Source of the DNA: Candidatus Thalassarchaeaceae archaeon
Lineage (GTDB): Archaea > Thermoplasmatota > Poseidoniia > Poseidoniales > Thalassarchaeaceae
Reading direction: 5' to 3'
NCBI GenBank assembly: GCA_023700245.1
Contig: JAJPRE010000005.1
Location: 7,106 to 71,105 of the forward strand
Length of the DNA stretch: 64,000 bases
The position numbers and the translations under genes were made by a program. Shown here one piece after another: positions 1 to 46,900 of this stretch. The number at the start of each line of letters is the position of its first letter. Within the stretch, counting starts at the first letter, position 1. The notes under the pieces were generated by a model. The model saw only the letters and a list, made by a program, of their open reading frames with translations, ran no database searches and was not told the origin of the DNA.

Positions 1-2
1 GC

Positions 3-1253
3 GTCAGAGAACAGGCAGTTGAAAAGGCAGTTCAAAATCAAATCATGACTGCATATGCAATACATGAATTGAATTCTGCAATTGCTAAAGCTGCGGCAGG
101 AAATTTCGGAGTAGACGATGCTCAACATGCATGGGATGAAGGTTGGGGATTGTACCACGGTACTGATGAAGCAGTGTCATGCTCACCATACGCAACTGGA
201 GATAAAAGAGCAGGGAATTTTGCAACTGCAGATGCGGATGGTACTTCATTAGCAAATGCAGCAATACTCGTGGCAATGAATGAAGGATTGGTTGCACTAC
301 AAGCTGAAGATCTTGCTGGCGCAACTGATGCAAGAGATGAGATAATTAAGAATTTAGTAATTATATACTCCCAGGCAACAATTCGATATGCCCACAAGAT
401 GAATACTGATTCAACAGTTGAAGCAGCACAAACACATCAATCAGAAGGTTATTCATTCTGGAGAGTAATTGAGTCTATGGTTGCTGATAGTAATCCATCA
501 CCAGGTAATGATTGCTATAATGGAGTCACAATGGCTGTAAGTGAATTACTATCGGATGAATGTGCCGGTTACATGTATGTAACAAACTATGACATAGGAG
601 ATGGTTCGGACATTTGTTATAATATGGAAATACATGAAGTTTCATCAGATGATACTGAAGTAAAGTGTGATGCTTACATGTTCTTACCAAACTATGGAGC
701 TACAGTATTTACAGGTGCATATAATTCTGTAACTCATACAATGAATTCTAGTTGGAATCAATCAATTACTGAGGGATGGAATTACTACGAAAACACCGAT
801 ATGGGAGATGGAAATTTATTCACAGGTTGCTATAATATGGTATCTCATGAAACTTCTGTCGATGATAATGCAACATGTAGTGCTTATTCATGGTTAATTG
901 ATTTTACAATGAATGATGGAGTAGATACTTGCTACAACAGTGTAACTTATTCCAGTTCAACTGTTAGTCAAGCAGTATGTGAATCATATGGATGGTATGT
1001 TAACTGGGGGGCTACAATGTTTACAGGATGCTATAATACAGTATCTCATGCTACCGATGCCGATATGACAGAAGCTAGTTGTGGAGGATTTTCATACTTT
1101 GAAGGATTTGGAACTGTAGGAATTAATGGAATATATGATTTCAGTAATGTTCCAGTAGCTGGAACTGACTATCAAGTAGCTGTTCGTGCACATCTTCAAC
1201 CAGCATGGGATATGCTAGGGATAACTACTGAAGATATTGGAATTCTTCAATGA
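3..1253 (+). CDS. 5'-truncated protein: helical domain (possibly Fea1/ISIP2a-like low-iron protein) interrupted by six ~35-aa Cys/His repeats
   Basis: The frame of ORF 45..1253 stays open back to nt 3, so the gene starts upstream of the window. Motifs AWDEGWGLYHG and PYATGDKRAGNF are present. Six tandem CYNxV(S/T)H-x8-9-C modules span aa 157-356 of the listed ORF. Confidence 0.6.
   Translation, partial: VREQAVEKAVQNQIMTAYAIHELNSAIAKAAAGNFGVDDAQHAWDEGWGLYHGTDEAVSCSPYATGDKRAGNFATADADGTSLANAAILVAMNEGLVALQAEDLAGATDARDEIIKNLVIIYSQATIRYAHKMNTDSTVEAAQTHQSEGYSFWRVIESMVADSNPSPGNDCYNGVTMAVSELLSDECAGYMYVTNYDIGDGSDICYNMEIHEVSSDDTEVKCDAYMFLPNYGATVFTGAYNSVTHTMNSSWNQSITEGWNYYENTDMGDGNLFTGCYNMVSHETSVDDNATCSAYSWLIDFTMNDGVDTCYNSVTYSSSTVSQAVCESYGWYVNWGATMFTGCYNTVSHATDADMTEASCGGFSYFEGFGTVGINGIYDFSNVPVAGTDYQVAVRAHLQPAWDMLGITTEDIGILQ
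513..1112 (+). repeat. Six tandem in-frame ~35-aa modules (CYN starts at ORF aa 157, 191, 226, 262, 296, 329)
   Basis: Read directly from the translation. The period is 33-36 aa. Module ends alternate between GDGxD and GATxFTG. The third copy lacks the Cys pair. Confidence 0.85.
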
Positions 1254-1306
1254 GATAGTTACCTAATGTGATACATGCAGATCATAGGAAATACACACTT
1301 TACGGT

Positions 1307-1400
1307 AACGGGAGTGCTTAAAACTCAGATTTCTGGAAGCAGAACAGACATCAACAGACTTCATCAAAGTTTTATGCAATTCAAATTAAGCACTCCCGTT
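1307..1400. repeat. Perfect 15-bp inverted repeat AACGGGAGTGCTTAA / TTAAGCACTCCCGTT with a 64-nt spacer, in an intergenic region
   Basis: Arms at 1307-1321 and 1386-1400 are exact reverse complements. The element lies between the stop of the first gene (1253) and the start of the transferrin-like gene (1574). Confidence 0.9.
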
Positions 1401-1573
1401 GACCAAATAATAGCACAATTAATTGAGAGGACAACGGGGCTCAATTATACTAAGAATAAAATTAAAAATTTGTAATTATATAAACTCACAATTAAATGAC
1501 TTAACATCCTAGGAGTAATTAGGCAGAAAATAAAAGTAGTTCCAATTATCGTTATCAAAAAGGTGTTTGTGAT

Positions 1574-3664
1574 ATGAAAATAACTTCAAGAATTACAATT
1601 ATTGTAACTATAATGATTTTGTCAACATTTTTCTCAGGTTGTATCGAAAGTACAAATGAGGAAGGTAATTTAGGAACGCTTGTAATTGCTTATGAGATTA
1701 AAGATAACCTAGAAGATATTGATAATAATCCTCAAATATTAGCAGACTATCTATCAGATAAATTAAATTACGATGTTTCTATTTTTAATGTAGCGTCGGA
1801 AGGTGCCATGATTGAAGCATTAAGATTCGGAAATGCCGATATTGCAGTAATGGATGCTGGATCAGGATGGATTGGTTGGCAACAACATGGATTAGAAGTT
1901 TTAGCTGCTGACTTGAATGAAGATGGAAAGTCATATTATAATTCTCATGCATGGGTGAAAAGAGATAGTGAAATAGGAGTGGCGCAAATTGATGGCGATA
2001 GATATACCGATCCATATTCATTGTTAGCGAGTAAAAATTCCTGTCATACCGGTTGGTTGAAATCAACAGGTATGTTAATCCCAATGGGATTCTTAATTGG
2101 GCACGGATATGCAAACATAATAGGGGATCCCAACGATGTTGAAACAATTAGAAATACAATATATGGTTTTTTTGGAGAGAATTCATCAATTCCTGATGTC
2201 GGTAGCCCATACTACGGAGACGAGGGTGCATTGAGATGCCTATCTGAAGGCAAAGGTGAAGTTGCATTTGCTAATGAAAATACTGTAGAAGCATATTGTG
2301 GGGCAGGTGACGGTATTGAAAAGAAAAATAACTGGTGTGGAAATTTCGAAGATTATGTTGCATTGCCCGCTTTTGGAAAGTCCCCCAGTAATCCACTGAT
2401 GTACAATCCATTTAAACTAAATAATAGTTTATTAGAAGAATTAGAAGAAGTATTAATAGAAATGGATAACGAAATTGAAGGAGTACGTATACTAAAAAAT
2501 ATATTTAATTCTTTAGGATTCATATCCACAAATGCAACAGAACATTTATCAGAATTCTCATCATTAATGTCTAATATTCCTGGAATATCAGCATATTATG
2601 ATGATAAATATGAAATAAATAACTCAATATCTCCTTCTTTAGATAAAATCAGCATAGGGTTTGAAATCAATAATATAAGTAATGATAGCAATCCTGAACT
2701 ATTAGGAAAATATTTAGAAAATACTCTTGGAGTTGAAGTAGAAGTCCACATATTTAATTCAGAAATAGAAATTCTTGACGCATTGGATGCAAATAATATT
2801 GATATCGGATTAGTCAACGAAAATGCAGCATGGTATGGTTGGAAGCAATATAGCCTAGCAGTCATGGCTGCGATAAAAGATGAAAATGGGAAGTCTAAAC
2901 ATGAATCAAAAGCATGGATTAGATCTAGTAGCGACATAGCAATCGCCCTTCTAGATGGCGATGAGGAAACTGACCCGTTTGAATTATTAAACGGTAAAAT
3001 ATCGTGTCATACTAGTTTACTAGATTCTGCAGGGACTTTCATACCATTAGGTAATTTAATTAATAACGGTTACATAAATTCATTTGAAAATGATATTGAA
3101 AATTTTAGTATAATAAATACTATTCAGACATTTCTAAGTAAAAATTCCTCAATACCTGATGAAGATGATGATTATTATGGTGAAGAGGGGGCATTAAAAT
3201 GCCTTTCAAAAGGGACAGGGGATGTAGCATTTACCAAGCATAATGCCATAGAAAAATTTTGTACTGGCCCTGAGAGTGCTGAATGGTGTCTTGATGCTGC
3301 CCAATATATATCTCTTCCAACTTTAGGAGAAATTCCTGCCAAATCTATAATTTATAATCCAAATTATTTAGATATTCAAACTAGAACTGCTATTTTGAAT
3401 TCATTAATGACACTTAATTATAAGATGTATGTTGAAAATTATTCAGTCATGGGAAATATATATACTGGATGTTATGATATTTCTGTTCATGTGATAGATG
3501 AAGAATCGCCAAAGAATAATTGCGGATCTGAAATTTTACATAATGTCTTAGAATCATCCGGAATAATTACAATTAATTCCCAGGATCACTTGGGCAAATA
3601 TTCTGAGATTATTACTAATATACCTAAAATTATAGAATATCACCAGCAACTATTACAAATATAA
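1574..3664 (+). CDS. Bilobal transferrin-like / PhnD-type substrate-binding lipoprotein
   Basis: Signal peptide with lipobox-like FFSGC. Internal duplication of lobe 1 (aa ~33-345) and lobe 2 (aa ~355-696). Both lobes carry SCHT(G/S)...(S/T)(A/T)G..IP.G and YYG(D/E)EGAL(R/K)CLS.G.G(E/D)VAF motifs, which resemble serum transferrin. A GGTG ribosome-binding site lies upstream of the ATG. Confidence 0.85.
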   Translation: MKITSRITIIVTIMILSTFFSGCIESTNEEGNLGTLVIAYEIKDNLEDIDNNPQILADYLSDKLNYDVSIFNVASEGAMIEALRFGNADIAVMDAGSGWIGWQQHGLEVLAADLNEDGKSYYNSHAWVKRDSEIGVAQIDGDRYTDPYSLLASKNSCHTGWLKSTGMLIPMGFLIGHGYANIIGDPNDVETIRNTIYGFFGENSSIPDVGSPYYGDEGALRCLSEGKGEVAFANENTVEAYCGAGDGIEKKNNWCGNFEDYVALPAFGKSPSNPLMYNPFKLNNSLLEELEEVLIEMDNEIEGVRILKNIFNSLGFISTNATEHLSEFSSLMSNIPGISAYYDDKYEINNSISPSLDKISIGFEINNISNDSNPELLGKYLENTLGVEVEVHIFNSEIEILDALDANNIDIGLVNENAAWYGWKQYSLAVMAAIKDENGKSKHESKAWIRSSSDIAIALLDGDEETDPFELLNGKISCHTSLLDSAGTFIPLGNLINNGYINSFENDIENFSIINTIQTFLSKNSSIPDEDDDYYGEEGALKCLSKGTGDVAFTKHNAIEKFCTGPESAEWCLDAAQYISLPTLGEIPAKSIIYNPNYLDIQTRTAILNSLMTLNYKMYVENYSVMGNIYTGCYDISVHVIDEESPKNNCGSEILHNVLESSGIITINSQDHLGKYSEIITNIPKIIEYHQQLLQI

Positions 3665-3820
3665 TGAGATAATCAGATTTTTAATAGTGAATATAGTTTC
3701 CCGGCAGTACCAAATAAGAGTTTAGGACCCCCTAAACTTTAGACAAAGTATTGGGAAGTGGTTTGAATATCGGCAAATAGAGTTGAAGAAATTCCTTTAG
3801 TTCGTCTAAATGATGTTTTA

Positions 3821-4480
3821 ATTGGATATAATTCCAAAAATCTACTATGTAAAATCCCAAACTTAGAAATTTGGCCAGGAGAAGTTGTTGCCATAACTGG
3901 ACCATCAGGAGTTGGAAAAACTACTTTGCTCAGAACTATAGCAGGAATCGTCTCACCATTAGAGGGCAATGTGGAAGTATGTGGTGATTTATTACCTCAT
4001 AAACCTAAAAGGGGGAGATTGGGTTACGTCCCTCAGAGACTTGGATTAGTAAGGCATGCTAGTATAATGCATAATGTCATGCTGGGGGCCACTGCTGGAA
4101 GTTCAACAATTTTTCATTCTTCGGAAGTAAAGAAGAAGGCACATCTGGCCATTGAAAGAATGGGATTAACCGACAAAATATTAGAGCCAGTTAGAAAATT
4201 ATCAGGAGGGCAACAAAGAAGAGTAGCGACTGCAAGAACTTTGGCACAGGAACCAAAATTAATACTAGCAGATGAGTTTTTGAGTGAATTAGATGAAGAA
4301 ACCATGGAGATGGTCCTAAATGAAGTATTAGAGTATGTTCGTAAAAGCGGTGCTGCATTGATTGTAGTTGAACATGACATAGCAAGGGCTAGATCAATGG
4401 CAGATAGATTATTAGTTATTGATGACGGAAGAATTAACCCGTTTATCAGAGAAGTCACTGCAATGGAGGTCAAAGTATGA
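3821..4480 (+). CDS. ABC transporter ATP-binding protein (PhnC-like); N-terminus apparently disrupted by a frameshift
   Basis: Walker A GPSGVGKTT, signature LSGGQQRR and Walker B LILADE are present. The expected N-terminal strand and A-loop Tyr (IPLVRLNDVLIGYNSKN) are encoded in a different frame at 3781-3840. The TTG at 3821 is the first possible start in the Walker A frame. Confidence 0.75.
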   Translation: MGYNSKNLLCKIPNLEIWPGEVVAITGPSGVGKTTLLRTIAGIVSPLEGNVEVCGDLLPHKPKRGRLGYVPQRLGLVRHASIMHNVMLGATAGSSTIFHSSEVKKKAHLAIERMGLTDKILEPVRKLSGGQQRRVATARTLAQEPKLILADEFLSELDEETMEMVLNEVLEYVRKSGAALIVVEHDIARARSMADRLLVIDDGRINPFIREVTAMEVKV

Positions 4481-5355
4481 TTACAATTCAGAATAAGATA
4501 TTATTCTTGTTCTTTGGCACCATATTTTTCACATTCTGGATATTGGATGGAATGGTCAATCATTGGGGAAGACTATCAGGAAGTTTTGGGAACTTAATTA
4601 CATTTTTCAATGAGTCATTATGGCCACCAGACTGGAGCGTCATTAAACCTCAAGCATATCCGGTTTGCACTGCATATCCATTATTTGATTTTACGTGTTC
4701 AACAGCATGGATTGGCATGATTGAAACGATAAAAATTGCATTTGTAGCCACAATATTGGGATCAATAATATCATTGCCATTATCTATGATTGCAGCACGT
4801 AACCTTAATTCGAAGGGTATCTCATACTTTATTAGATTCGTATTGGCAGGTGCTAGAAGTTTACCAAGCATAATATGGGCAATATTTTTTGTTATTTTAG
4901 TCGGCTTTGGGCCTTTTGCAGGAGTATTGGCTATGACAATATACACTGTTGGATACTTAGGTAAATTACAATATGAAGCAATAGAGGGGATGAATAACAT
5001 TCCTTTGGAGACTGCAAAGTCAATGGGACTATCAAAATTTGAAATTGCAATAGGAGTTGTAATACCTGAAATGGCCAATAGCTTGATATCACAAACAATT
5101 TTTATGTTTGAATATAATGTTAGACATGGCACAGTAATAGGAATAGTTGGAGCAGGTGGTATTGGATATTACATCAATCTATACCTAAAATTTCTACAAT
5201 ATGATAAAGTAATTTCTTATCTAATAATTATTTTCATTGTAGTGCTAGTAATAGACTTTATTTCAATATCGGCAAGATCATTATTTAATGAGGAAGGAGA
5301 TTTATCAAAACCGTCATGGTGGGGAGTTTTTGGATCGCCAAATAGTAAGAAATAA
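4477..5355 (+). CDS. ABC transporter permease, PhnE-like
   Basis: PhnE-type motifs: ETIKIAF...LPLSMIAARNL, SLPSIIWAIFFV, EAIEG, VGAGGIGYY. The start overlaps the ATPase stop by 4 nt (ATGA). Confidence 0.9.
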   Translation: MITIQNKILFLFFGTIFFTFWILDGMVNHWGRLSGSFGNLITFFNESLWPPDWSVIKPQAYPVCTAYPLFDFTCSTAWIGMIETIKIAFVATILGSIISLPLSMIAARNLNSKGISYFIRFVLAGARSLPSIIWAIFFVILVGFGPFAGVLAMTIYTVGYLGKLQYEAIEGMNNIPLETAKSMGLSKFEIAIGVVIPEMANSLISQTIFMFEYNVRHGTVIGIVGAGGIGYYINLYLKFLQYDKVISYLIIIFIVVLVIDFISISARSLFNEEGDLSKPSWWGVFGSPNSKK

Positions 5356-6794: not shown

Positions 6795-9700
6795 TCATTC
6801 CAAATGTATTCTCTTTGATCGGAACTTAGCAATTTTAGTTTTTTGCCAATTAACCAATCTAAATAACATTAATATTAAGAAAATCGATATTAATGTTATT
6901 AATAAATATACATCCTGATTAAATGGCCTAGTTGGATCATATGGATGAGAATCTTGAGTATCTGGAATGTTGTCTCCATCATCATCAATATCCAATAGGT
7001 TAATTTCTCCATCATTATCTAAATCCAAGAAGTCAATTGACGAGAATTCAGGAATTTCTAACTCTTCTTCTTCCACGATATTTAGATTTGGATCCGGTAT
7101 ACATCCAATTATATTTCCAATTGCAAGTAAATGAGTAATGTCAACATATGAAGAATTCAATCCTGGTTCAAAAATACAACCATCGGAATTATCTCCTACA
7201 GAATCTCCATCAGAATCCATCCATTCCAAGGGATCATTGTCGAAAAGGTCAAAGTTGTCTCCTTTATTATCTCCATCTAAATCGCTCCATTCATTTGGAT
7301 CTAATTCAAAAGAATCATTAGAATCCTCATAGCCATCATTGTCATCATCTTTATCTAAATTATTACCTTGTGTATCTCCATCTGTATCTATATATTCAGA
7401 AGGATCAAGTGGGAACTCGTCCCCTAACAAATTACAATATTCTAAAGTAATTATATATACTGGATGGCCATTAGATAAATTGACAAAGTCTGATGGATAA
7501 ATTAGTGGATATGAGGATGGTAGATAGTTTAAAACAGAAGGATGCATTAAAGGAACTTCTTCGCCCATTGATGTTAAAATACTAAGACTACCAATATTGT
7601 GATTACTGCCATAATTATTATTTGATGAATCAACAAAGGATGTCCCAGTATTAGTATCACATACGCCATCACCATCATCATCTGCATCGAAATTATCGCC
7701 TAATTGATCCCCGTCATAATCAGACCATTCAAATTTATTAGAAGAAAATGTATCAAAGTTATCTGTTCTTCCATCATTATCATCATCCTGATCAGTATTA
7801 TCTCCAATACCATCTGAATCGGTGTCACTCCACTCAGTCCTATCTAAGGGAAAAGCATCCATAATTATTACTTGATAGACTATATTGCCATTTGAATCTA
7901 AAGTTTGTAAGGTATAAGTATCATTTACTCCGTCATTATCATCATCCGGGTCAATATTATCTGGAATTTGATCACTATCGGTGTCTGCAGAAACATTCGG
8001 ATCCAATGGATCAAAATCGATTACATCTGGTACTCCATCGTTATCATCATCTAAATCATTGATATCTACGATCGAATCTCCATCCGTATCCAATATACAG
8101 TCATTAAGAGAATTCGAAGCTGTTCGAATTGTAGATTTTAATTCTGGACATGCAATTTGATCCATTGCCATCACAGTTTCAACATAATATCCAAGTGAAG
8201 CCTCTGCACAACTTGCTAAACCTCTGATATTAGAATAATGTCCTATCTTACAAGGGGACTGATCTAGTGAAGAAGAATTTGGAGCATCGTAACCCTTGGC
8301 TGCAAGCGAACAAGATGTTTGACCAGAAGAGGGCTGATAAGTACCTGGATTACAGGGAGTTTGGAAACCTGAACCATGATTGAGATCTATATTTTCAGGA
8401 GCATTGTTATCCACAATATTTCCATTGCCTAATTGCCCATTAGAGTTATATCCCCAGCAATACAAAGTTGCATCATCCAATATTGCACAAGAATGTCTTT
8501 GCCCTACTGAAATTGATAATGCTGAACGACCAATAGGAATATCAACTTCATCGGCAATTATCCTATTATCATTAGTTCCATCTCCAAGTTGACCTTTTGC
8601 ATTATCTCCCCAGCAAATTACATTACCACCATCTAAAACTGAACAGGTATGATGGAATCCGGACTCTACAATAGATGGTATTTGATTTTCAGAGAGGGGG
8701 ACTGGATTTGGAAGATTGAAATTATCATAATTTCCATTACCTAGTTGGCCTCCTGAATTAAAGCCCCAGCAATACAATGAATTGTTAATCATAATTGAAC
8801 AAGTATGAAATGCTCCACTACTTATTGATCTAGATTGATATTGACTTCCTAATGACTTAGGAGTTAATTGCCTATCATTACTACCATCTCCAAGTTGACC
8901 ATGCCAATTATCGCCCCAACATTCAATTGAAGAGTTAATCAATATTGCACATGTGTGATATGATCCAGCAGATAATGAAATAACATCAGAGCCATCGAAT
9001 AAAATTTTAGTTGGAATATTCCTATCTGAAGTAGAGCCGTCTCCTAACTGCCCATTGGCATTTCCTCCCCAGCATTTTACAGAATTATCATCAAGAATTG
9101 AACATGTGTGCGTTTGCCCTAAAGTAATGCTTGATGCAGATCTACCATTGCCAAGTTTGACTAATGTGGGAGCCGTTCTTTCAACTGTCGTACCATCTCC
9201 CAATTGGCCTTGGGAATTGTCCCCCCAGCACCTAAGAGATCCATCATCAAAAATTGCACATGAATGTGCTAAGCCGGTAGATACAGATATTGCAATACGT
9301 CCTAATGGAGTATTTACTACAGTTGGGGTCAATTTATCATCTCTTGAACCATCTCCTAATTGTCCATTACCATTACTCCCCCAGCAACGTATAGCCCCAT
9401 CATCCAAAATTGCACAGGAATGTAAATTACCAGCGTTTACATCTGTTAAGATAGGGACATTGAACCCTGGGTCTGAACCGATGCAATCTGTTGGTGAATT
9501 TGAGCCAGTTAAAGGATTATATGTCCCTCCTGAGCATGCAATTTGTGCACTTGAACCAATTGAACTAACATAATAACCGGCATTGGCATCATCACATTTA
9601 TCCATCCCGGATAATTTTTGAAATGTACCTATTGAGCAAGGAGATTGAGAAGTTGCGCCATTTGTATCTACATAATTTCCTGGACTTGCAGGTACCTTAA

Positions 9701-12700
9701 TCAAACTTCCAGGGGTATCGACATAGAAGCCAACAGTAGCTTCTTGGCAATAATAGCGACCATATTCTCCTATTCCACAAGTGACTGCAATCGCAGGATT
9801 GTTATCATCGGAATCTGAGCCTGAAGGATAACCGTCACCATCAGCATCAGATGCTATATGTGTGTCAAAAATATTTAGAATTGAATCGTCATCTAAGTCC
9901 CTTTCTGCAGCATTTATGTATGACCACCTAGGCAAAGTAACATCTGTTGGAGATGATCCGATATCAAGAGATTGGATATCTCCTAAGCCCCAACATCGCA
10001 ACATATCATTACTTGTGGAAGAACAGGTGTAATGGCCCCCTGAAGAAACGCTTATTGGAAATTTACCGCCTGTGAAGGAGATAGCCGAAGGAGTATTTTG
10101 ACTACTATCAGTACCATCTCCTAGTTGTGAAAATGAGTTGTCCCCCCAGCATTTTAAAATATTTGTTGTATCCAAAACACAAGAATGAGAATTACCAAGA
10201 GATACTGAAGAAATTCCTGAAACTATATTTGAAATTGGAGAGTTTGAGTTTACATTTGTACCATCACCTAGTTGTCCTTCCGAATTACTACCCCAACAGC
10301 TTAGAGTAGTGTCACTAAGAATTGTGCAAGTATGCATATAACCAGTTGAAACGGCTACTGGAGTAGTAGATAGTGAGACTATAGTTGGAGTATATCTATC
10401 AGAAGTTGAAGAGTCCCCTAACTGGCCATGAGAGTTATCGCCCCAACACTTTAGATTGGGAGTATTTGTAATAGCGCAAGTATGACTTCCTCCCGTTGAA
10501 ATGGCTAATACTAAATCGGATCCCAAATCTACGGATGATGGATAATAGACAGAATTTGTAGTACCATCGCCTAACTGTCCATCAGAATTATCTCCCCAGC
10601 ATTTTAAATTAGCAGTTGCAAGTACAACACAAGTGTGATATGAACCAGCAGAAATAGTGACAGGAACATCAGAACCCAAATCAATATCCAAAGGAATTGA
10701 TGAGTCCAGTACTGAACCATCGCCCAACTGGCCTTGGGAATTACTTCCCCAACATTTTAGACTAGCATCATCCAATATTGCACAAGTATGAGAATTTCCA
10801 GAGGAAATTGAAACAGCAGTACGGCCGATGCCGAAATTCACAGGAGTCATAGTTTGTCTATCTGTAGTAGTTCCATCTCCCAATTGTCCTTCAGAATTGT
10901 CTCCCCAACAATTTACGGATGAGTCATCCAATATTGCACAAAAGTGACCATTGCCAGTTGAAAGTGTTGTTTCGGTAAATATGGAACCTTCTTGGAAACC
11001 AGGATCATTGAGGCTTCCCGAAACTGGTTGACTCATGTCAGTTAACATATAATTATCACTTACTGCTATTGCAAATTTTTGAGGACCTTCCGGAACGTTT
11101 GTCCCGGATACTATTATTTCCCAATCTCCTGCATCCGGACTATCTACTGATAGTCCTAGTAAATTATTAATATTTCCAGTTTTTTGACCATATATATTTC
11201 CGGAAGGATCTTTTAGCGTCATATCAAGATCATTGACTAGGCATTGTGTAGAACAGGAAGATACGCTGATATTATGTGAGTCAGTCCATGAAAGAATAAC
11301 ATCAAAAGAAGGAGTTCCGACAGGAATTGAGAGCCTGATTGACTTACTTTCGGAAGTTGCAATTTCTAATTGATCCAAAAAGGAGCTAGATATTGCATCT
11401 TGAACATTTATTCTTCCCCATCCTTCATGGTTATTTGGAGTTGTTTGAGCAGCGCCATTGGAGCCCCCATACTGACCTTCCATATCTACACTAGTGGCAC
11501 TAAAAATACCTTTTATAAGGGCTGAGCTTGGAGTTAAATAACCAGCATTATTCAAGTTTTCAATTAGCAGGGCAGCAGCACCCGCAGCCAAGGGAGTAGC
11601 CATTGAAGTCCCCGATTTATATGTGTAATCAGACCATTCTTCAGGATTACCGTCTCCATTCATATCAATATTTACCGGATTACCATCAGATTCACTTGAT
11701 AAAACAGAAACTACACGAGTTCCTGGGGCCACTAAATCAGGCTTTATTCTGCCATCTTGAGTTGGGCCCCTGTTGGAATTACACCAAACTCCATCAATAT
11801 TATTAGCTTCGTAATCTGAAGCAATAGGTTCAACGGGAAATTTGATTATGGTTCGCTGTCCATTCCCATCCTTTTCGAGATACAGATCACAAGTAATCAT
11901 GCTAGAAGGGCGATTATTTTCTGATGCACCAATAGAAAATCCATTTTTTGTTACTGCTTGGGGTTGTATCCAAGAAGTATCGATTTCTCCATCTGCATTA
12001 TAATCATTACCTTCATTCCCTAAAGCAAATAATATTACAAGATCTTCATAAGTATATGCTGCTTGATCTATTTGTTTTGAATACGAGGTATAATAGTTAG
12101 GACTCAAAGTTTCGGGGTCCGTGCCCCAAGAATTTGTTTGCACTCTAACGCCTGCTTCATAGGCCGGAGTTGCTATTCCTGATACAAAATTTGAAGGAGA
12201 ATAGAGGCCTGCAGGTCCACAAGGTCCTAATTCATCCATTGCATAAAACCATAATTCCGATTCATATGCCATACCTTTGAAAAATCCTCCAGAATTTGAG
12301 CCATCGCCTACTGCAGAGCCAGCAACATGAGTGCCGTGACCATTGATGTCTGCAGGATCGTCGTCGTCGCAACCCCTGCTTGCAGGCGCATTGGAGCCGG
12401 TTATGATAGTCTTTATTCTACCAGAGAAATCAGAGTTGATAGTGGGATTATTGACATTGCATGATGAAATTGAAGTACATAAGTTAGCATTATCAAGGCC
12501 TGAATCAGCAACTCCTATTATTACTCCATCTCCTGTAAGTACATTGCCAGACCCGCCCATGTAAGAAGCATCCCAAACATGATCTATGCCAAGAATTTCG
12601 GCAGCTTTATCATCAAATAGTCGTGCTGGATATTTTGGTTCCATCCACTCAACGTACTCCTGATTAGATAGCCAAAGTATTTCCTTCTCATCCACAACGA

Positions 12701-13364
12701 CTTCCGCATAAATATCTTCAAGCATCATCAAATTGATGCCATGCCCCAATAAATTATGACCTTCTTCGGGCCCGGAAAGAATAATATTAATAACAAATTT
12801 TCCCCCCTCTTTCATACTCCCATAATCTTCACCATTCATTATTGGGACCAAATCAGGGGCTAGTTTGTCAATCACATCAAGTTGAAAAGATCCGATGACC
12901 CCCAAATCTGCAAGCTCATAAGGAGATTTCTGACTGACATGACAATGGAATCCTTGAGGTGGCAAGTAAGAGTAGCATGCGATTCCTGAATCTGCCAAAC
13001 TTTCTTTCCAATTCGATGGGACTGGATAATCGTGAGCAAGCACATACCAACCATCCATAATATTTTGATTTGTAATTTTAGACCAGTCATTTATTGGCAC
13101 ATAATTAGCAGTCCTATAGAATAGGTAAGCCTCACCAATGTTATTTTTATCCTCCCAGCCATGAGAACTGTCCGATAAATCAGGAGATATTAAGAAATTA
13201 CCTTTATCATCATATTTTACAGAAATATCGGAGAGTGATTGTTGATGATTTGAAGAGTCCTTCATTGGATATTCAGATGCAGCCACGGTAAGTACCGTAG
13301 GTAAAAGAATTAACAATACAAGGGTCAAAGATATCGGAGTACTTGCCCTGCTCCCTCTACCCAT
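6795..13364 (-). CDS. Giant anchored surface protein: signal peptide, S8 subtilase, two 7-repeat RCC1-like propellers, Cys-rich ephrin-receptor-like modules, thrombospondin type-3-like Ca-binding repeats and a C-terminal TM helix
   Basis: Catalytic triad motifs VADSGLD, HGTHVAG and GTSMATP. Fourteen CWG(D/S)N..GQLGDG repeats. Many DxDxDGxxDxxDxDDDNDG repeats. C-terminal hydrophobic segment YLLITLISIFLILMLF. The ORF runs to 13436, but the ATG at 13364 gives a canonical signal peptide (MGRGSRASTPISLTLVLLILLP...). Confidence 0.9.
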   Translation of the reverse strand: MGRGSRASTPISLTLVLLILLPTVLTVAASEYPMKDSSNHQQSLSDISVKYDDKGNFLISPDLSDSSHGWEDKNNIGEAYLFYRTANYVPINDWSKITNQNIMDGWYVLAHDYPVPSNWKESLADSGIACYSYLPPQGFHCHVSQKSPYELADLGVIGSFQLDVIDKLAPDLVPIMNGEDYGSMKEGGKFVINIILSGPEEGHNLLGHGINLMMLEDIYAEVVVDEKEILWLSNQEYVEWMEPKYPARLFDDKAAEILGIDHVWDASYMGGSGNVLTGDGVIIGVADSGLDNANLCTSISSCNVNNPTINSDFSGRIKTIITGSNAPASRGCDDDDPADINGHGTHVAGSAVGDGSNSGGFFKGMAYESELWFYAMDELGPCGPAGLYSPSNFVSGIATPAYEAGVRVQTNSWGTDPETLSPNYYTSYSKQIDQAAYTYEDLVILFALGNEGNDYNADGEIDTSWIQPQAVTKNGFSIGASENNRPSSMITCDLYLEKDGNGQRTIIKFPVEPIASDYEANNIDGVWCNSNRGPTQDGRIKPDLVAPGTRVVSVLSSESDGNPVNIDMNGDGNPEEWSDYTYKSGTSMATPLAAGAAALLIENLNNAGYLTPSSALIKGIFSATSVDMEGQYGGSNGAAQTTPNNHEGWGRINVQDAISSSFLDQLEIATSESKSIRLSIPVGTPSFDVILSWTDSHNISVSSCSTQCLVNDLDMTLKDPSGNIYGQKTGNINNLLGLSVDSPDAGDWEIIVSGTNVPEGPQKFAIAVSDNYMLTDMSQPVSGSLNDPGFQEGSIFTETTLSTGNGHFCAILDDSSVNCWGDNSEGQLGDGTTTDRQTMTPVNFGIGRTAVSISSGNSHTCAILDDASLKCWGSNSQGQLGDGSVLDSSIPLDIDLGSDVPVTISAGSYHTCVVLATANLKCWGDNSDGQLGDGTTNSVYYPSSVDLGSDLVLAISTGGSHTCAITNTPNLKCWGDNSHGQLGDSSTSDRYTPTIVSLSTTPVAVSTGYMHTCTILSDTTLSCWGSNSEGQLGDGTNVNSNSPISNIVSGISSVSLGNSHSCVLDTTNILKCWGDNSFSQLGDGTDSSQNTPSAISFTGGKFPISVSSGGHYTCSSTSNDMLRCWGLGDIQSLDIGSSPTDVTLPRWSYINAAERDLDDDSILNIFDTHIASDADGDGYPSGSDSDDNNPAIAVTCGIGEYGRYYCQEATVGFYVDTPGSLIKVPASPGNYVDTNGATSQSPCSIGTFQKLSGMDKCDDANAGYYVSSIGSSAQIACSGGTYNPLTGSNSPTDCIGSDPGFNVPILTDVNAGNLHSCAILDDGAIRCWGSNGNGQLGDGSRDDKLTPTVVNTPLGRIAISVSTGLAHSCAIFDDGSLRCWGDNSQGQLGDGTTVERTAPTLVKLGNGRSASSITLGQTHTCSILDDNSVKCWGGNANGQLGDGSTSDRNIPTKILFDGSDVISLSAGSYHTCAILINSSIECWGDNWHGQLGDGSNDRQLTPKSLGSQYQSRSISSGAFHTCSIMINNSLYCWGFNSGGQLGNGNYDNFNLPNPVPLSENQIPSIVESGFHHTCSVLDGGNVICWGDNAKGQLGDGTNDNRIIADEVDIPIGRSALSISVGQRHSCAILDDATLYCWGYNSNGQLGNGNIVDNNAPENIDLNHGSGFQTPCNPGTYQPSSGQTSCSLAAKGYDAPNSSSLDQSPCKIGHYSNIRGLASCAEASLGYYVETVMAMDQIACPELKSTIRTASNSLNDCILDTDGDSIVDINDLDDDNDGVPDVIDFDPLDPNVSADTDSDQIPDNIDPDDDNDGVNDTYTLQTLDSNGNIVYQVIIMDAFPLDRTEWSDTDSDGIGDNTDQDDDNDGRTDNFDTFSSNKFEWSDYDGDQLGDNFDADDDGDGVCDTNTGTSFVDSSNNNYGSNHNIGSLSILTSMGEEVPLMHPSVLNYLPSSYPLIYPSDFVNLSNGHPVYIITLEYCNLLGDEFPLDPSEYIDTDGDTQGNNLDKDDDNDGYEDSNDSFELDPNEWSDLDGDNKGDNFDLFDNDPLEWMDSDGDSVGDNSDGCIFEPGLNSSYVDITHLLAIGNIIGCIPDPNLNIVEEEELEIPEFSSIDFLDLDNDGEINLLDIDDDGDNIPDTQDSHPYDPTRPFNQDVYLLITLISIFLILMLFRLVNWQKTKIAKFRSKRIHLE
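6942..8090 (-). repeat. Acidic Asp-rich calcium-binding repeats (thrombospondin type-3-like)
   Basis: Repeated DTDGD/DSDGIGDN/DDDNDG motifs at aa ~1783-2165. Confidence 0.75.
8421..9440 (-). repeat. RCC1-like repeat array 2 (7 repeats of ~51 aa)
   Basis: CWG motifs at aa 1351, 1403, 1455, 1506, 1556, 1609 and 1660. Confidence 0.85.
9981..10961 (-). repeat. RCC1-like repeat array 1 (7 repeats of ~51 aa)
   Basis: CWG motifs at aa 843, 895, 946, 997, 1047, 1096 and 1148 of the 2213-aa ORF. Confidence 0.85.
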
Positions 13365-13500
13365 GTTTAATGTACGTAGTAGGAAGGGCATTAAAACTAC
13401 TGATTGATTTATGTTTTTATAAGTATAATTATGCATCTTTAACTATAAAATATTAATATGCAGGGAACAGGAATATAGGCCATGACTTCTTGGGTTAAAT

Positions 13501-43961: not shown

Positions 43962-46900
43962 ATGAAACGTCTTAATATGTCCGTACTTATTATGATGCGC
44001 CGTAGAGGGTTTTTGGCTTCAGTGCTCATCATAGTTCTGATAGTCCCGCTGGCTTCATCTTCAATATTGCCATCTAAAAAAACAGATGGCGGGCTAGATG
44101 CTGACGGAGAATGGCAGAGTAGTATGGAATCTGGCATCCACAACGATTGGTGGCTAGATTGGAGCAGAGATAAAAACAATAATATGTTAGATGATAGATT
44201 AGAATGGTTATTGGATCAAACTGCTGAAATTCAACATAATTGGTGGAAAAGAGCACCTAATGGTAGTTCAAGAGTAATAGTAGATTATGATCATCACCCT
44301 AGTAATAAAGACATAGAGGCACTAGAGAATATTGGGGCAGAAGTAACATTTAGGCCAATTTATCTTGATAGTCTAATCATAACAATACCATTTGAACCTA
44401 TTTTGAACATAAATGGGATTCGCTCATTACAAGGAGTAGTGATGATTGAAGATTTAGGGTTGGCAGAACCAAATATGAATGAAGCAGTTCCTAATATGGG
44501 AGTAAATGGAGTTTGGGAAGATTTTGGATTAGACGGTACTGGTTCAACTATAGCAATTCTAGATACTGGAATTAGAGGAGATCATGAAGGACTAAATGAT
44601 ATGGATGACGATCCCCTAACATGCATAAGTGAGCCTCCTGACCCCTTAAATCCAAATCCCGAACCAATATCAGATTGCGACCCGAAAATAATAGGATTTT
44701 TTGATGCTGTATTCACTGATGATGAACAAGATCCAGCATCATCATATGATTCTGGGACACATGGCAGTCATGTTGCTGGAATTGCAGCCGGAAGTGGAGG
44801 AGGGCAAGCCGATCCGGTTAGTGGAATGAGATATATTGGAGCTGCTCCAGGTGCATTTCTAATAAATATATTAGCTTGCTGCGATGGAGACATTGAAGAT
44901 ATCATTCAAGGTGCAGAATGGGCCATAGAAAATAAAGAAAAATATGGCATAGATATTTTGACATCTTCACTTGGTGAACAACAAGTTGAGATTCATTTTG
45001 ATAATGATGGTAGTTCGGCATGGAGTAGGCAGATGGATTATGTTGTTGAATCTGGAATAATTACCACATTATCTGCTGGAAATGAATTTGGAGGAGCTAC
45101 TTTTGCTGGCTGTAATACAATCGATAGCCCCGGTGATGCAGAATTGCCAGTAACTGTTGGAAGTTTAGATAAAGATCTTGGTTTGGCAATTTATAGTAGT
45201 AGAGGATATACTTCTGATTTACGAGTGAAGCCTGATGTAGCAGTAATAGGATCAAATATAATGGCCCCGGATGCTGCGACGAGTGATGGATATACTAGTA
45301 AATCTGGAACAAGTATGGCAACTCCTTTGATGGCAGGAATTGCGGCCTTAATGGTACAAGCAAATCCCGATTTGACTCCTGAAGAATTTAAAGACATCAT
45401 TCGTGCAGATTCTATTGAAAGGGAGTTGACCCTGCTTAATGACCCAGGATTAAATGATTGTAGTATAATTGAGACTAGGCCAGATAATGAATTTGGATAC
45501 GGGCAGGCAGACCCTGTAAAATTTGTAGAATCAGCAGGAAGTATCGATCGTTCGCTCAATATTTCAATGAATATAGAGACTTTACAGGAAATAGGTAACC
45601 AGAGTTATGTTGGAGGATTTTCTTCTGGGGCAGCACCTGGGCAAGGAGAAGTCCAAGTAAGAGTTGGCGGAGGTATTTGGAAAGGTGCGGCTGATCTTAC
45701 TGGAGATTGGAGTGAATGGAGATTAAAACTTGAGCCTCATGAACAATCTGGGAACTCTACAATATATGCAAGGTTAGTGATGAGTGAGGATAGTATTTCT
45801 CCCGTGGATGCGAAAAGAGTTATACTTATTGATGGAGTATCCAAAAGTGGAATTGTAAATGGAGAATTGATATCAATGGGATCATTTATATTCTTTTTTC
45901 CATTTATTATAGTCCTAGGAATATTAGCATATGTGATGATTAATGAACGATGGGTAGATAAAATGAAGTCTAATAAGACATCAAATAATGTTGATTTAGT
46001 ATCAAATTATTCAAAAATAAATACGGAGTCATTTAACATATTTATTTGGTTTGAAAAAATAAATAAAGAATGGAACAATGGGGCTTCATTGATTGAGAAC
46101 CAATTTAGAAGATATATTTCTTTGTGTGTTTTATATATTGCCCAAGGATTACCTGCAGGTTTTACATATGTAGCATTTGTAGCGTATCTTACTGATAATG
46201 GAACTCCTCCTGCAGATATAGCGATATTATTTGCAACTGTTGCCCTTCCTTGGACATTCAAATTTATTTGGGGGCCATTAATTGACTTGCTCGTGATTCC
46301 TGAATATGGGATAAGACGCCCTTGGATCTTATTTGCACAATCTGGAATGGTAATATCTTTATCGACATTGTTATTTATTCCAAATATTATTGATTCCATA
46401 GCATTAGTAACGATATTATTATTTATTCATAATCTATTTTCATCGCTACAAGATGTAAGCGTAGATGCTTTGGCTGTTGACGTATTAAGGCCGGATGAAG
46501 TTGCTAAAGCAAATGGATTTATGTTTGCATCTAAGAGAGGTGGAATGATTTTTGGTGGGGCAGTTCTAGGCCTATTGGTTGTACCTTATGGCATCAAATC
46601 TGCAATAATGCTACAAATACCAATATTAATAATTATGATGAGTTTGCCACTTTTCCTACGCGAGAAACCAGAGAATAAACTATTCCCATGGGAAAGTAGC
46701 AGAGAAGAAAATGAAATAACTGTACAGGAAGATGAAGTGATTAAAAGTTCAGAATTGACATGGGAGGGAGATGATAATCCACGGTTCAAAGGTGCTAGAT
46801 GGGCAGCAAATAACATATATTACAATAAAATTAGTATTACTGCTGCATTTTTGTGGATTGGAATTATTACATGGGTATTTGGAGGTGCAATAAATATAAT

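What the first reader, a model, noticed from the sequence alone, without database searches (positions are those of the whole stretch)
1670..3661. Ligand-motif asymmetry between the two lobes of the transferrin-like protein
I compared lobe 1 with human serotransferrin N-lobe motifs recalled from memory. ADIAVMDAGSG matches ADAVTLDAGLV, so the Asp ligand is kept. KSYYNSHAWVKRDS matches FYYAVAVVKK, the first Tyr ligand. NSCHTGWLKSTGMLIPMG matches KSCHTGLGRSAGWNIPIG, so the anion-binding Thr is kept and the Arg position is Lys. SPYYGDEGALRCLSEGKGEVAF matches [20 protein letters not shown], the second Tyr. The His-ligand segment (VPSH in transferrin) reads SPSN here. Lobe 2 keeps ISCHTSLLDSAGTFIPLG and DYYGEEGALKCLSKGTGDVAFTKH. 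However, it has LVNENAA at the Asp segment and SKHESKAW at the YY segment. Lobe 1 therefore looks like an Asp/Tyr/Tyr plus synergistic-anion site, and lobe 2 looks degenerate or repurposed.
Basis: partly seen in the sequence, partly recalled or inferred. Interest (0 to 1): 0.7.

Follow-up and report, generated by a model that had tools for sequence, protein, structure and literature searches.

The report
Lopsided transferrin-like iron binder in archaeon
A marine archaeon carries a two-lobed, transferrin-like surface protein in which one lobe has lost its whole metal site and the other has lost half of it. This happened only in lineages that also gained an algal-type iron-capture gene next door, and the archaeal transport system it belongs to has been read as a phosphonate importer but looks more like an iron importer.

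Summary
The quoted motifs are all present in a 696-aa lipoprotein (window 1574-3664), and the lobe asymmetry is real. One assignment is out of register. The second transferrin Tyr ligand (hTf Tyr188, lactoferrin Tyr192) aligns with D216, not with Y213/Y214. The His ligand position is N273.

- Lobe 1 keeps Asp94, Tyr122 and the anion site T159/K163, which is two of four protein ligands.
- Lobe 2 keeps none of the four (N415, H443, E537, K590), and its anion Lys is D484.

The protein belongs to a family found across Poseidoniales (Marine Group II archaea). In 59 of 80 species both lobes carry the full Asp/Tyr/Tyr/His plus Thr/Lys set.

Degenerate lobe 2 occurs almost only where a FEA1-related lipoprotein gene lies directly upstream: 16 of 18 degenerate loci against 3 of 47 complete ones. 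This rests on one or two evolutionary events. The FEA1 gene comes with a conserved structured RNA.

Both lobes are under purifying selection. By sequence the nearest relatives are eukaryotic transferrins, not PhnD.

My best reading is that this is the binding protein of a PhnC/PhnE-type importer that probably carries ferric iron. Lobe 1 would be a modified site and lobe 2 a non-binding module. No binding has been measured.

The parts
1..1253 (+). 3' part of a FEA1-related (phytotransferrin-family) lipoprotein gene, cut by the window start. Its C-terminal half holds about 6 Cys-rich repeats (CYNxVxH...C).
   Evidence: Pfam Fea1 4.1e-08. NCBIfam NF038033 scores 197 bits for the truncated copy. 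The full-length orthologue in L001 scores 370 bits against a cut-off of 250. The frame is open to base 3.
1297..1412 (+). Conserved structured RNA element between the FEA1-like gene and the binding-protein gene. No Rfam family matches it.
   Evidence: 88-97% identical in 5 loci whose spacers are otherwise diverged. Fold energy -35.2 kcal/mol, z -6.5. A covariance model finds it in 12 further FEA1-linked loci (plus one weak match) and in none of the 31 FEA1-less loci searched. Five stem pairs show compensatory changes, and the G-U wobbles fit only the + strand.
1574..3664 (+). Gene for a 696-aa two-lobed transferrin-type substrate-binding lipoprotein.
   Evidence: Pfam PF12974 at 104.9 bits and PF00405 at 88.7 bits. 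Best PDB sequence hits are all transferrins, E 4e-20 and weaker. AF2 model pLDDT 84. The Foldseek top 50 are all eukaryotic transferrins, E 1e-28 to 1e-22.
1574..1642 (+). Signal peptide ending in the lipobox FFSG-C23.
   Evidence: Read directly from the sequence. G22 and C23 are invariant in 43 homologues.
1670..2620 (+). Lobe 1 (aa 33-349). Ligand-position codons: D94 1853-1855, Y122 1937-1939, T159 2048-2050, K163 2060-2062, D216 2219-2221 (Tyr188 position), N273 2390-2392 (His249 position).
   Evidence: The secondary-structure positions match the transferrin topology.
2639..3661 (+). Lobe 2 (aa 356-696). Equivalent codons: N415 2816-2818, H443 2900-2902, T480 3011-3013, D484 3023-3025, E537 3182-3184, K590 3341-3343.
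   Evidence: Lobe-to-lobe alignment, signatures, dN/dS 0.14-0.26.
3422..3523 (+). Beta-hairpin insertion of about 31 aa found only in lobe 2, with the motif TGCYDISVH...C. The same motif is repeated in the FEA1-like protein's C-terminal half.
   Evidence: Insertion relative to lobe 1. T631, C633, Y634, H639 and C650 are invariant in the family. Strands 617-642 in the model. The FEA1 repeats are seen in the translation.
3719..3738 (+). Perfect 8-bp hairpin (AGTTTAGG/CCTAAACT) between the binding-protein gene and the ATPase gene.
   Evidence: It is conserved in L001, L008 and L009.
3767..4480 (+). PhnC-like ABC ATPase. The reading frame has no ATG, GTG or TTG before the Walker A motif.
   Evidence: Best NCBIfam hit TIGR02315 at 147.9 bits, below the cut-off of 266. 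The frame and the conservation in four species are shown.
4477..5355 (+). PhnE-type ABC permease.
   Evidence: TIGR01097 at 221.8 bits against a cut-off of 216.7.

Best explanation
The ORF encodes a membrane-anchored, two-lobed, transferrin-type substrate-binding protein. It serves an ABC importer built from PhnC- and PhnE-type subunits in a Marine Group IIb archaeon (Thalassarchaeaceae).

In the ancestral and still commonest form of this family, each lobe carries the complete transferrin site: Asp, Tyr, Tyr and His, plus Thr and Lys at a helix N-terminus for a synergistic anion. I infer that this form captures Fe(III) with carbonate at two clefts and passes it to the permease.

In the lineage that holds the window, a gene for a FEA1-related lipoprotein was inserted directly upstream, together with a structured RNA. 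FEA1 belongs to the ferric-iron-binding family of algal FEA1/ISIP2a 'phytotransferrin'.

In that lineage lobe 2 lost every ligand and the anion Lys. I infer that it is kept only as a structural or docking module. Lobe 1 kept Asp94, Tyr122, Thr159 and Lys163 but later lost the second Tyr (D216) and the His (N273).

I infer that lobe 1 is the only remaining binding cleft. It would be a weaker or re-tuned Fe(III)-anion site that works with, or takes iron from, the FEA1-like protein.

Shown here: homology, ligand mapping, conservation pattern, synteny and selection. Inferred: the substrate (iron), the hand-off from FEA1, and the role of lobe 2.
For: 1. Ligand mapping. The family profile aligns on lactoferrin D60, Y92, T117, R121, Y192 and H253. 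The query has D94, Y122, T159, K163, D216 and N273 in lobe 1, and N415, H443, T480, D484, E537 and K590 in lobe 2.

2. Family state. Of 80 GTDB Poseidoniales species, 59 have DYTKYH (or EYTKYH) in both lobes. In these the two lobes are 53-72% identical to each other (63-72% in all but one) and evolve at equal rates.

3. Link to FEA1. With enough upstream flank to judge, counts are: degenerate lobe 2 with FEA1, 16; degenerate without FEA1, 2; complete with FEA1, 3; complete without FEA1, 44 (uncorrected Fisher p = 2e-10). The locus is the same in all cases, flanked by the same genes, so these are orthologues.

4. Order of events. All 12 species with an altered lobe 1 also have a degenerate lobe 2. 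None of the 59 species with a complete lobe 2 has an altered lobe 1.

5. Retained residues. D94, Y122 and T159 are kept in every FEA1-linked species, while the same positions in lobe 2 drifted. This argues that lobe 1 still binds something.

6. Selection. dN/dS is 0.08-0.16 in lobe 1 and 0.14-0.26 in lobe 2.

7. Nearest relatives. Profile hits in the PDB are transferrins, E down to 1.7e-36 among the 60 listed, with no PhnD or PtxB among them. hhalign to E. coli PhnD gives only 58% probability over 81 columns. An exhaustive phmmer search finds only 288 clusters, and the nearest non-archaeal ones are ichthyosporean multi-lobe transferrins.

8. FEA1 identity and iron. The upstream gene passes the NCBIfam equivalog cut-off. 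FEA1/ISIP2a bind ferric iron (PMC7676907).

9. Phosphonate use. No phosphonate-consuming archaea were found among single-cell genomes whose archaeal fraction is 80% MGII (bioRxiv 10.1101/2020.11.04.368217). Yet 'transport of phosphonates' is listed in the MGII core genome (PMC6336850).
Against: - No binding has been measured for any family member.
- From my own knowledge of hTf N-lobe mutagenesis, loss of Tyr188 abolishes iron binding. D216 together with N273 could therefore mean that lobe 1 no longer binds Fe(III).
- The transporter subunits are PhnC/PhnE-type, a family known for phosphorus oxyanions.
- At the single-lobe fold level, PtxB, AioX and ArrX oxyanion binders match as well as transferrin N-lobes do.
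- The FEA1 association rests on one or two evolutionary events, so it is a lineage correlation, not a replicated one.
- Three species pair FEA1 with a fully intact binding protein (L076, L078, L079).
- Model coordinates could not be inspected, so the geometry of the cleft is untested.
Confidence: 0.5

Rival explanations
1. One reading: lobe 1 is a canonical Asp/Tyr/Tyr plus carbonate ferric site lacking only the His, and lobe 2 is dead.
For: D94, Y122, T159 and K163 are present and invariant or nearly so. A conserved YY pair sits at 213/214.
Against: Y213/Y214 align with hTf Y185/F186. The ligand column is D216 in the query but Tyr in more than 90% of relatives.
Confidence: 0.07
2. The protein is a true PhnD-like binder of phosphonate, phosphite or phosphate, as databases and the MGII literature assume. 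The transferrin-like motifs would be shared ancestry without metal binding.
For: PF12974 is the top Pfam hit. The partners are PhnE (above the equivalog cut-off) and a PhnC-like ATPase. Single-lobe Foldseek puts PtxB first. Y122 aligns with PhnD Tyr93, a phosphonate contact in my recollection of the PhnD structure work. The Thr/helix-N-terminus anion site is retained.
Against: TIGR03431 PhnD scores 53 against a cut-off of 261, and TIGR01098 scores 74 against 112. The family conserves exactly the four transferrin metal ligands in both lobes. No phosphonate catabolic genes lie in the 64-kb window among the genes scanned. MGII lack phosphonate consumption pathways (bioRxiv 10.1101/2020.11.04.368217). 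An iron-family FEA1 gene is adjacent.
Confidence: 0.13
3. In the query neither lobe binds a small ligand any longer. The protein has become a docking adaptor that receives the iron-loaded FEA1-like lipoprotein at the permease.
For: Two of four ligands are lost in lobe 1 and all in lobe 2. Both lobes are still under purifying selection. Ligand erosion is seen only in FEA1-linked lineages. Both proteins share the CYxxSxH...C module.
Against: D94, Y122 and T159 are retained in every FEA1-linked species while the lobe-2 equivalents drifted. That is hard to explain if the lobe-1 cleft were idle.
Confidence: 0.15
4. Lobe 1 has switched to another substrate that suits an Asp/Tyr/Asp/Asn site with a Thr/Lys anion pocket, such as a divalent metal, another hard cation or a metal-organic complex.
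For: The ligand set changed from 2 Tyr + His + Asp to Tyr + 2 Asp + Asn, and this is fixed in all five sequences of the query's clade (query, L001/L002, L008, L009), which are 92-95% identical to the query. Other FEA1-linked clades show other replacements (His or Phe at 216; Asp or Gln at 273), which suggests tuning and not one new optimum.
Against: The variety of replacements between sister clades looks more like relaxed constraint than convergence on a new site. There is no contextual clue to another substrate.
Confidence: 0.1

Closest known systems
Vertebrate transferrins (serotransferrin, lactoferrin, ovotransferrin)
   Same: Two homologous lobes, each a two-domain cleft. The same motifs are present (ADxxxLD, YY, SCHTG...(R/K)SAG, Y(Y/F)GYSGA(F/L)(K/R)CL...GDVAF, PSH). 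The family-wide ligand set is Asp/Tyr/Tyr/His plus Thr and a basic residue. They are the best sequence and whole-protein fold matches.
   Different: This is an archaeal lipoprotein encoded with an ABC ATPase and permease, not a secreted glycoprotein taken up through a receptor. Lys replaces the anion Arg. The lobe duplication is independent, since archaeal lobes cluster together. Lobe 2 carries an extra Cys/His hairpin. The query itself lacks Tyr188 and His249 equivalents in lobe 1 and all ligands in lobe 2.
Melanotransferrin and insect transferrin-1 (transferrins with one inactive or non-canonical lobe)
   Same: One lobe keeps a site while the other has lost its ligands but is retained. Melanotransferrin is the top hit. 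By my own knowledge, Manduca Tf1 (6WB6, found) shows that the coordination set can vary.
   Different: In the query the surviving lobe is itself reduced to Asp plus one Tyr. The loss correlates with gain of a neighbouring FEA1-like gene, which has no counterpart in animals.
PhnD / PtxB / AioX-type oxyanion-binding proteins (Pfam PF12974)
   Same: The same fold at lobe level. The same partner permease family, PhnE. A shared Tyr on the hinge strand, Y122 = PhnD Y93, and an anion pocket at a helix N-terminus.
   Different: It fails the PhnD equivalog and subfamily cut-offs. No solved PhnD-type chain appears among the 60 listed profile hits. It is duplicated into two lobes and carries the transferrin metal ligands.
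FEA1 / ISIP2a phytotransferrin of algae
   Same: The upstream gene is a FEA1-family member. That family binds ferric iron at the cell surface (PMC7676907).
   Different: Here it is a prokaryotic lipoprotein with extra Cys-rich repeats, placed in a cassette with an ABC importer instead of an endocytic pathway.
Bacterial ferric-binding proteins FbpA/FutA
   Same: The proposed job is the same: a binding protein delivering Fe(III) plus an anion to an ABC importer.
   Different: There is no sequence relationship. No SBP_bac-type Pfam hit was found, and the permease family differs.

Membership tests
Transferrin family (Pfam PF00405) | Sequence match above the curated threshold | tested here: met
   88.7 bits against a gathering score of 20.3, in 3 stretches. 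The lobe profile hits lactoferrin at E 1.7e-36.
Transferrin family (Pfam PF00405) | Two homologous lobes, each with a two-domain cleft fold | tested here: met
   Internal lobe alignment. AF2 model pLDDT 84. The Foldseek top 50 are all two-lobed transferrins.
Transferrin family (Pfam PF00405) | Asp, Tyr, Tyr and His metal ligands in a lobe | tested here: not met
   Query lobe 1 has D94, Y122, D216 and N273 (2 of 4). Lobe 2 has N415, H443, E537 and K590 (0 of 4). The feature is met in both lobes of 59 of 80 related species.
Transferrin family (Pfam PF00405) | Synergistic-anion site: Thr plus Arg at a helix N-terminus | tested here: inconclusive
   Lobe 1 has T159 and K163, with Lys for Arg; K163 is invariant and T159 is T in 120 of 121 homologues. 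In lobe 2 T480 is kept but the basic residue is D484.
Transferrin family (Pfam PF00405) | Reversible Fe(III)-carbonate binding | not testable with these tools
   Needs purified protein.
PhnD phosphonate-binding protein (TIGR03431 / TIGR01098 / PF12974) | Score above the curated equivalog or subfamily cut-off | tested here: not met
   TIGR03431 scores 53.3 against 261.1, and TIGR01098 scores 74 against 112. The broad Pfam domain PF12974 is met (104.9 against 27).
PhnD phosphonate-binding protein (TIGR03431 / TIGR01098 / PF12974) | Encoded with PhnC and PhnE | tested here: met
   PhnE TIGR01097 scores 221.8 against 216.7. For the ATPase, PhnC is the best hit but below cut-off, 147.9 against 266.1.
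PhnD phosphonate-binding protein (TIGR03431 / TIGR01098 / PF12974) | Phosphonate-contact residues | tested here: inconclusive
   hhalign to E. coli PhnD covers only 81 columns at 58% probability. Y122 aligns with PhnD Y93, while PhnD Y47 aligns with M93. The remaining contacts could not be aligned.
PhnD phosphonate-binding protein (TIGR03431 / TIGR01098 / PF12974) | Linked phosphonate catabolic genes | tested here: not met
   None among the 30 large ORFs scanned between 13.5 and 52.8 kb, nor in the 80 related loci mapped.
FEA1-related lipoprotein (NCBIfam NF038033), for the upstream gene | Score above the equivalog cut-off of 250 bits | tested here: met
   The window copy is truncated by the window edge and scores 197 bits. 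The 94%-identical full-length orthologue in L001 scores 370 bits.

The most novel reading that the evidence does not exclude
The 'phosphonate transporter' counted in the core genome of Marine Group II archaea would in fact be a transferrin-based Fe(III) uptake system. Its two-lobed binding protein would be the closest prokaryotic relative of eukaryotic transferrins. In the window's lineage the system would have been rebuilt into a two-protein relay: a phytotransferrin-like FEA1 lipoprotein captures iron and hands it to a transferrin-like receptor lobe, under control of a new structured RNA.
Probability: 0.3. Interest if true: 0.85.

Novelty: new variant of a known kind. Interest (0 to 1): 0.68.

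Why it matters
Marine Group II archaea are among the most abundant archaea in surface seawater, where iron is scarce. If their core 'PhnCDE' system imports iron through a transferrin-type protein, several things follow.

- Genome-based budgets of who uses phosphonate and who competes for inorganic iron would need revising.
- It would explain why these archaea carry a 'phosphonate' importer without phosphonate catabolism.
- It would give a prokaryotic context for the origin of transferrins and their link to phytotransferrins.

The window's variant is a natural experiment. Ligand loss in one lobe, then partial loss in the other, after a second iron-binding protein arrived, shows which parts of the site are dispensable.

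Tried and rejected
- MAFFT --auto shifted the lobes against each other in 49 sequences and gave false gaps. I replaced it with L-INS-i.
- Whole-protein Foldseek TM-scores are low (about 0.3) because the relative lobe orientation in the model differs. I therefore modelled lobe 1 alone. That model is only moderate (pLDDT 76), and its fold matches cannot separate PtxB-type binders from transferrin lobes.
I repeated it with lobes cut from the session's protein hits.
- hhalign to E. coli PhnD aligned only the first domain, so PhnD contact residues beyond Tyr47 and Tyr93 could not be mapped.
- I considered reading the intergenic RNA as a minus-strand C/D-box sRNA (Rfam SNORD113, 23.4 bits, below gathering). 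I rejected it because four G-U wobbles in the closing stem would be A-C mismatches on that strand.
- I considered lobe 2 as a decaying remnant and rejected it because dN/dS is well below 1.
- I considered the FEA1-linked proteins as paralogues and rejected it because the flanking genes are the same.
- Searches with transferrin and iron terms found no paper describing a transferrin-type or iron-binding protein in MGII. Searches found only the phosphonate-transport reading.
- No second copy of the gene lies in the window.
Full report
**What is at the coordinates**

Window 1574-3664 (+) is one ORF of 696 aa. It begins with a hydrophobic signal ending in FFSG-C23, a lipobox whose Gly and Cys are invariant in relatives. 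Pfam finds PF12974 (phosphonate-binding, 104.9 bits) and PF00405 (transferrin, 88.7 bits).

Against the sequences of solved structures, all 60 listed of the 97 hits are transferrins, led by melanotransferrin at 4e-20. Upstream lies the 3' part of a FEA1-related lipoprotein gene, cut by the window edge. Downstream lie a PhnC-like ATPase and a PhnE permease.

Relatives at 92-95% identity come from Thalassarchaeaceae, which is Marine Group IIb in the order Poseidoniales.

**Checking the observation**

All nine quoted strings are present at the stated residues. I tested the mapping onto transferrin ligands in two ways.

- HMMER aligns the query to melanotransferrin so that D94 falls on D78 and Y121/Y122 fall on Y107/Y108. 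The ligand Y210 falls on D216.
- A profile built from 32 lobes of the family aligns to equine lactoferrin precisely on D60, Y92, T117, R121, Y192 and H253.

In the query these columns are D94, Y122, T159, K163, D216 and N273.

Y213/Y214 correspond to hTf Y185/F186, and the ligand column holds Asp216.

The lobe-to-lobe alignment gives N415, H443, T480, D484, E537 and K590 for lobe 2. All four ligands are gone, and the anion Lys has become Asp.

In the AF2 model (pLDDT 84) these residues sit where transferrin ligands sit, as I recall that topology. One follows a strand just before a helix, two lie on or between the hinge strands, and one lies at a helix N-terminus, in both lobes. I could not inspect coordinates.

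**The family**

A word-indexed search found 643 relatives, nearly all about 700 aa. A scan of one genome per GTDB species found 396 loci, of which the best 80 were kept. Nearly all come from Poseidoniales or unclassified archaeal MAGs, and two records carry bacterial MAG titles.

In 59 of these 80 species both lobes read D-Y-T-K-Y-H (or E-Y-T-K-Y-H) at the six positions. In such proteins the two lobes are 53-72% identical to each other (63-72% in all but one), and they diverge at equal rates between MGIIa and MGIIb.

In a lobe tree the archaeal N- and C-lobes cluster together, apart from eukaryotic lobes. The duplication is therefore independent of the animal one.

An exhaustive phmmer search of 1.84 billion representatives with lobe 1 found only 288 clusters at E <= 0.001. 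Beyond Poseidoniales these are:

- single-lobe Thermoplasmatota binding proteins;
- multi-lobe transferrins of ichthyosporean protists (Chromosphaera with 5 lobes, Creolimax with 3, Amoebidium, Ichthyophonus), most of them carrying the same D-Y-T-K/R-Y-H pattern.

Classical PhnD is distant. It fails the NCBIfam cut-offs, and hhalign gives 58% probability over 81 columns. At the fold level a single lobe matches PtxB, AioX and ArrX as well as it matches transferrin N-lobes. So the fold is shared, and it is the sequence motifs that are transferrin-specific.

**Where the asymmetry comes from**

Twenty of the 80 species have a degenerate lobe 2. The cassette sits at the same chromosomal place in all cases: a conserved divergent 650-aa gene, then the binding protein, PhnC and PhnE, then a glycerol-3-phosphate-dehydrogenase-like gene. 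These are therefore orthologues.

The difference is a FEA1-related lipoprotein gene inserted just upstream. For loci with enough flank to judge:

| Lobe 2 state | FEA1 upstream | No FEA1 |
|---|---|---|
| Degenerate | 16 | 2 |
| Complete | 3 | 44 |

The uncorrected Fisher p is 2e-10. On a neighbour-joining tree the degenerate forms fall in one or two clades. The correlation therefore rests on few events and is not proof of cause.

Within those clades the erosion continues in a telling order. All 12 species with an altered lobe 1 already have a degenerate lobe 2. The altered positions are the second Tyr (to D, H or F), the His (to N, Q or D) and sometimes the Lys. D94, Y122 and T159 never change.

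The window's own clade (query, L001, L002, L008 and L009) has D216 and N273. Its sister clade, at 65% identity, still has Tyr at 216.

**Is lobe 2 junk?**

It is not. Between the window and three relatives, dN/dS is 0.08-0.16 for lobe 1 and 0.14-0.26 for lobe 2. Yet the former ligand positions differ among clades (NHTDEK, AIPDDK, NSSDDD, ESNDDD, DYSSNS, TNTDAT), so no new common site has formed.

The one widely shared change is the anion Lys becoming Asp. As speculation only, that carboxylate could occupy the old anion pocket.

**Mechanism**

I read the ancestral protein as a tandem two-site Fe(III)-carbonate binding protein feeding a PhnE/PhnC-type importer. Three observations support this.

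- It has exactly the transferrin ligand and anion set.
- By sequence its closest relatives outside the archaea are iron-binding transferrins.
- Phosphonate catabolism is absent from MGII (bioRxiv 10.1101/2020.11.04.368217), even though 'transport of phosphonates' is listed in their core genome (PMC6336850).

FEA1/ISIP2a proteins bind ferric iron at algal surfaces, and they have been linked by phylogeny to the same ancestral binding-protein stock as transferrin (PMC7676907, citing McQuaid 2018).

In the window's lineage I infer that the FEA1-like lipoprotein took over part of iron capture. That would have relaxed the constraint on the binding protein. Lobe 2 became a non-binding module, and lobe 1 a reduced site (Asp, Tyr, anion pocket, plus Asp216 and Asn273).

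I cannot tell whether that site still holds Fe(III). From my own knowledge of hTf mutagenesis, loss of Tyr188 is severe. I give the whole reading a confidence of 0.5.

**Comparison with known systems**

The protein works like, and is related to, transferrins. The query itself fails the defining four-ligand test in both lobes, so I file it as a divergent member of an archaeal transferrin-type family and not as a functional transferrin.

It is not a PhnD equivalog. The one-active-lobe pattern parallels melanotransferrin and insect transferrins. The coupling to a FEA1-like gene and to an ABC importer has no described counterpart in the papers I could search.

**Side findings**

- A 116-nt structured RNA lies between the FEA1-like gene and the binding-protein gene. 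It is supported by covariation and found only in FEA1-linked loci.
- The ATPase frame has no canonical start codon in four species, yet it is conserved.
- A Cys/His hairpin module is shared by lobe 2 and the FEA1-like protein's repeats.
- Single-lobe complete copies lie next to the cassette in other genomes.

Noticed in passing
window 1297-1412 (+): A conserved structured RNA of about 116 nt lies between the FEA1-like gene and the binding-protein gene. Its closing stem of 11-18 bp has 5 covarying pairs and plus-strand G-U wobbles, and it has conserved boxes (ACTTnnACGGYAAYG, CATCAW, CACAYTCAATTT, CGTTRACC). No Rfam family matches. A covariance model finds it at the same spot in 12 further FEA1-linked loci (plus one weak match) and in none of the 31 FEA1-less loci searched.
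   Followed up: partly
window 3767-3925 (start of the ATPase gene): The PhnC-like ATPase frame has no ATG, GTG or TTG between the upstream in-frame stop (3764-3766) and the Walker A motif. The same holds in L001, L008 and L009, with synonymous differences between them, so the gene looks functional and may start at ATA or ATT. Gene callers truncate it to 184 aa.
   Followed up: partly
window 3422-3523 and window about 450-1200: A small Cys/His module (TGCYxxSxH...C, a beta hairpin in the model) is inserted once in lobe 2 of the binding protein. It is repeated about six times in the C-terminal half of the neighbouring FEA1-like protein. It is invariant in the binding-protein family even where FEA1 is absent, and no Pfam family covers it.
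   Followed up: partly
L006 13188-14237 (-); L039 213-1211; L045 223-1221; L087 2506-3513: Single-lobe (about 350 aa) transferrin-type binding proteins with a complete D-Y-T-K-Y-H site lie close to the FEA1-linked cassette in other genomes, in some next to a GSDH-family gene. The window has no such copy, and the rest of its genome could not be checked.
   Followed up: partly
P0127 (1894 aa), P0137 (1046 aa), P0145, P0156, P0163: The nearest non-archaeal relatives of the archaeal lobes are multi-lobe transferrins of ichthyosporean protists (Chromosphaera with 5 lobes, Creolimax with 3). Most have Lys, not Arg, at the anion position, like the archaeal family. The direction of any gene transfer was not resolved.
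   Followed up: partly
L001 3900-5891 (-) and the same position in most related loci (outside the window, upstream of its first base): A gene of about 650 aa with no Pfam match is transcribed divergently from the cassette. It is conserved at this position in both MGIIa and MGIIb loci, so it may be functionally linked.
   Followed up: no
window 3719-3738: A perfect 8-bp hairpin (AGTTTAGG/CCTAAACT) lies between the binding-protein stop codon and the ATPase gene, and it is conserved in close relatives. It may be a site for setting the ratio of binding protein to membrane subunits.
   Followed up: no
window 43962-47828 (+) and 6795-13436 (-): Two unusual large proteins. One is a 1288-aa fusion of a subtilase (Peptidase_S8) with a Major Facilitator transporter domain. 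The other is a 2213-aa protein whose 92%-identical locus orthologue (L001) carries subtilase and RCC1-repeat Pfam domains.
   Followed up: no
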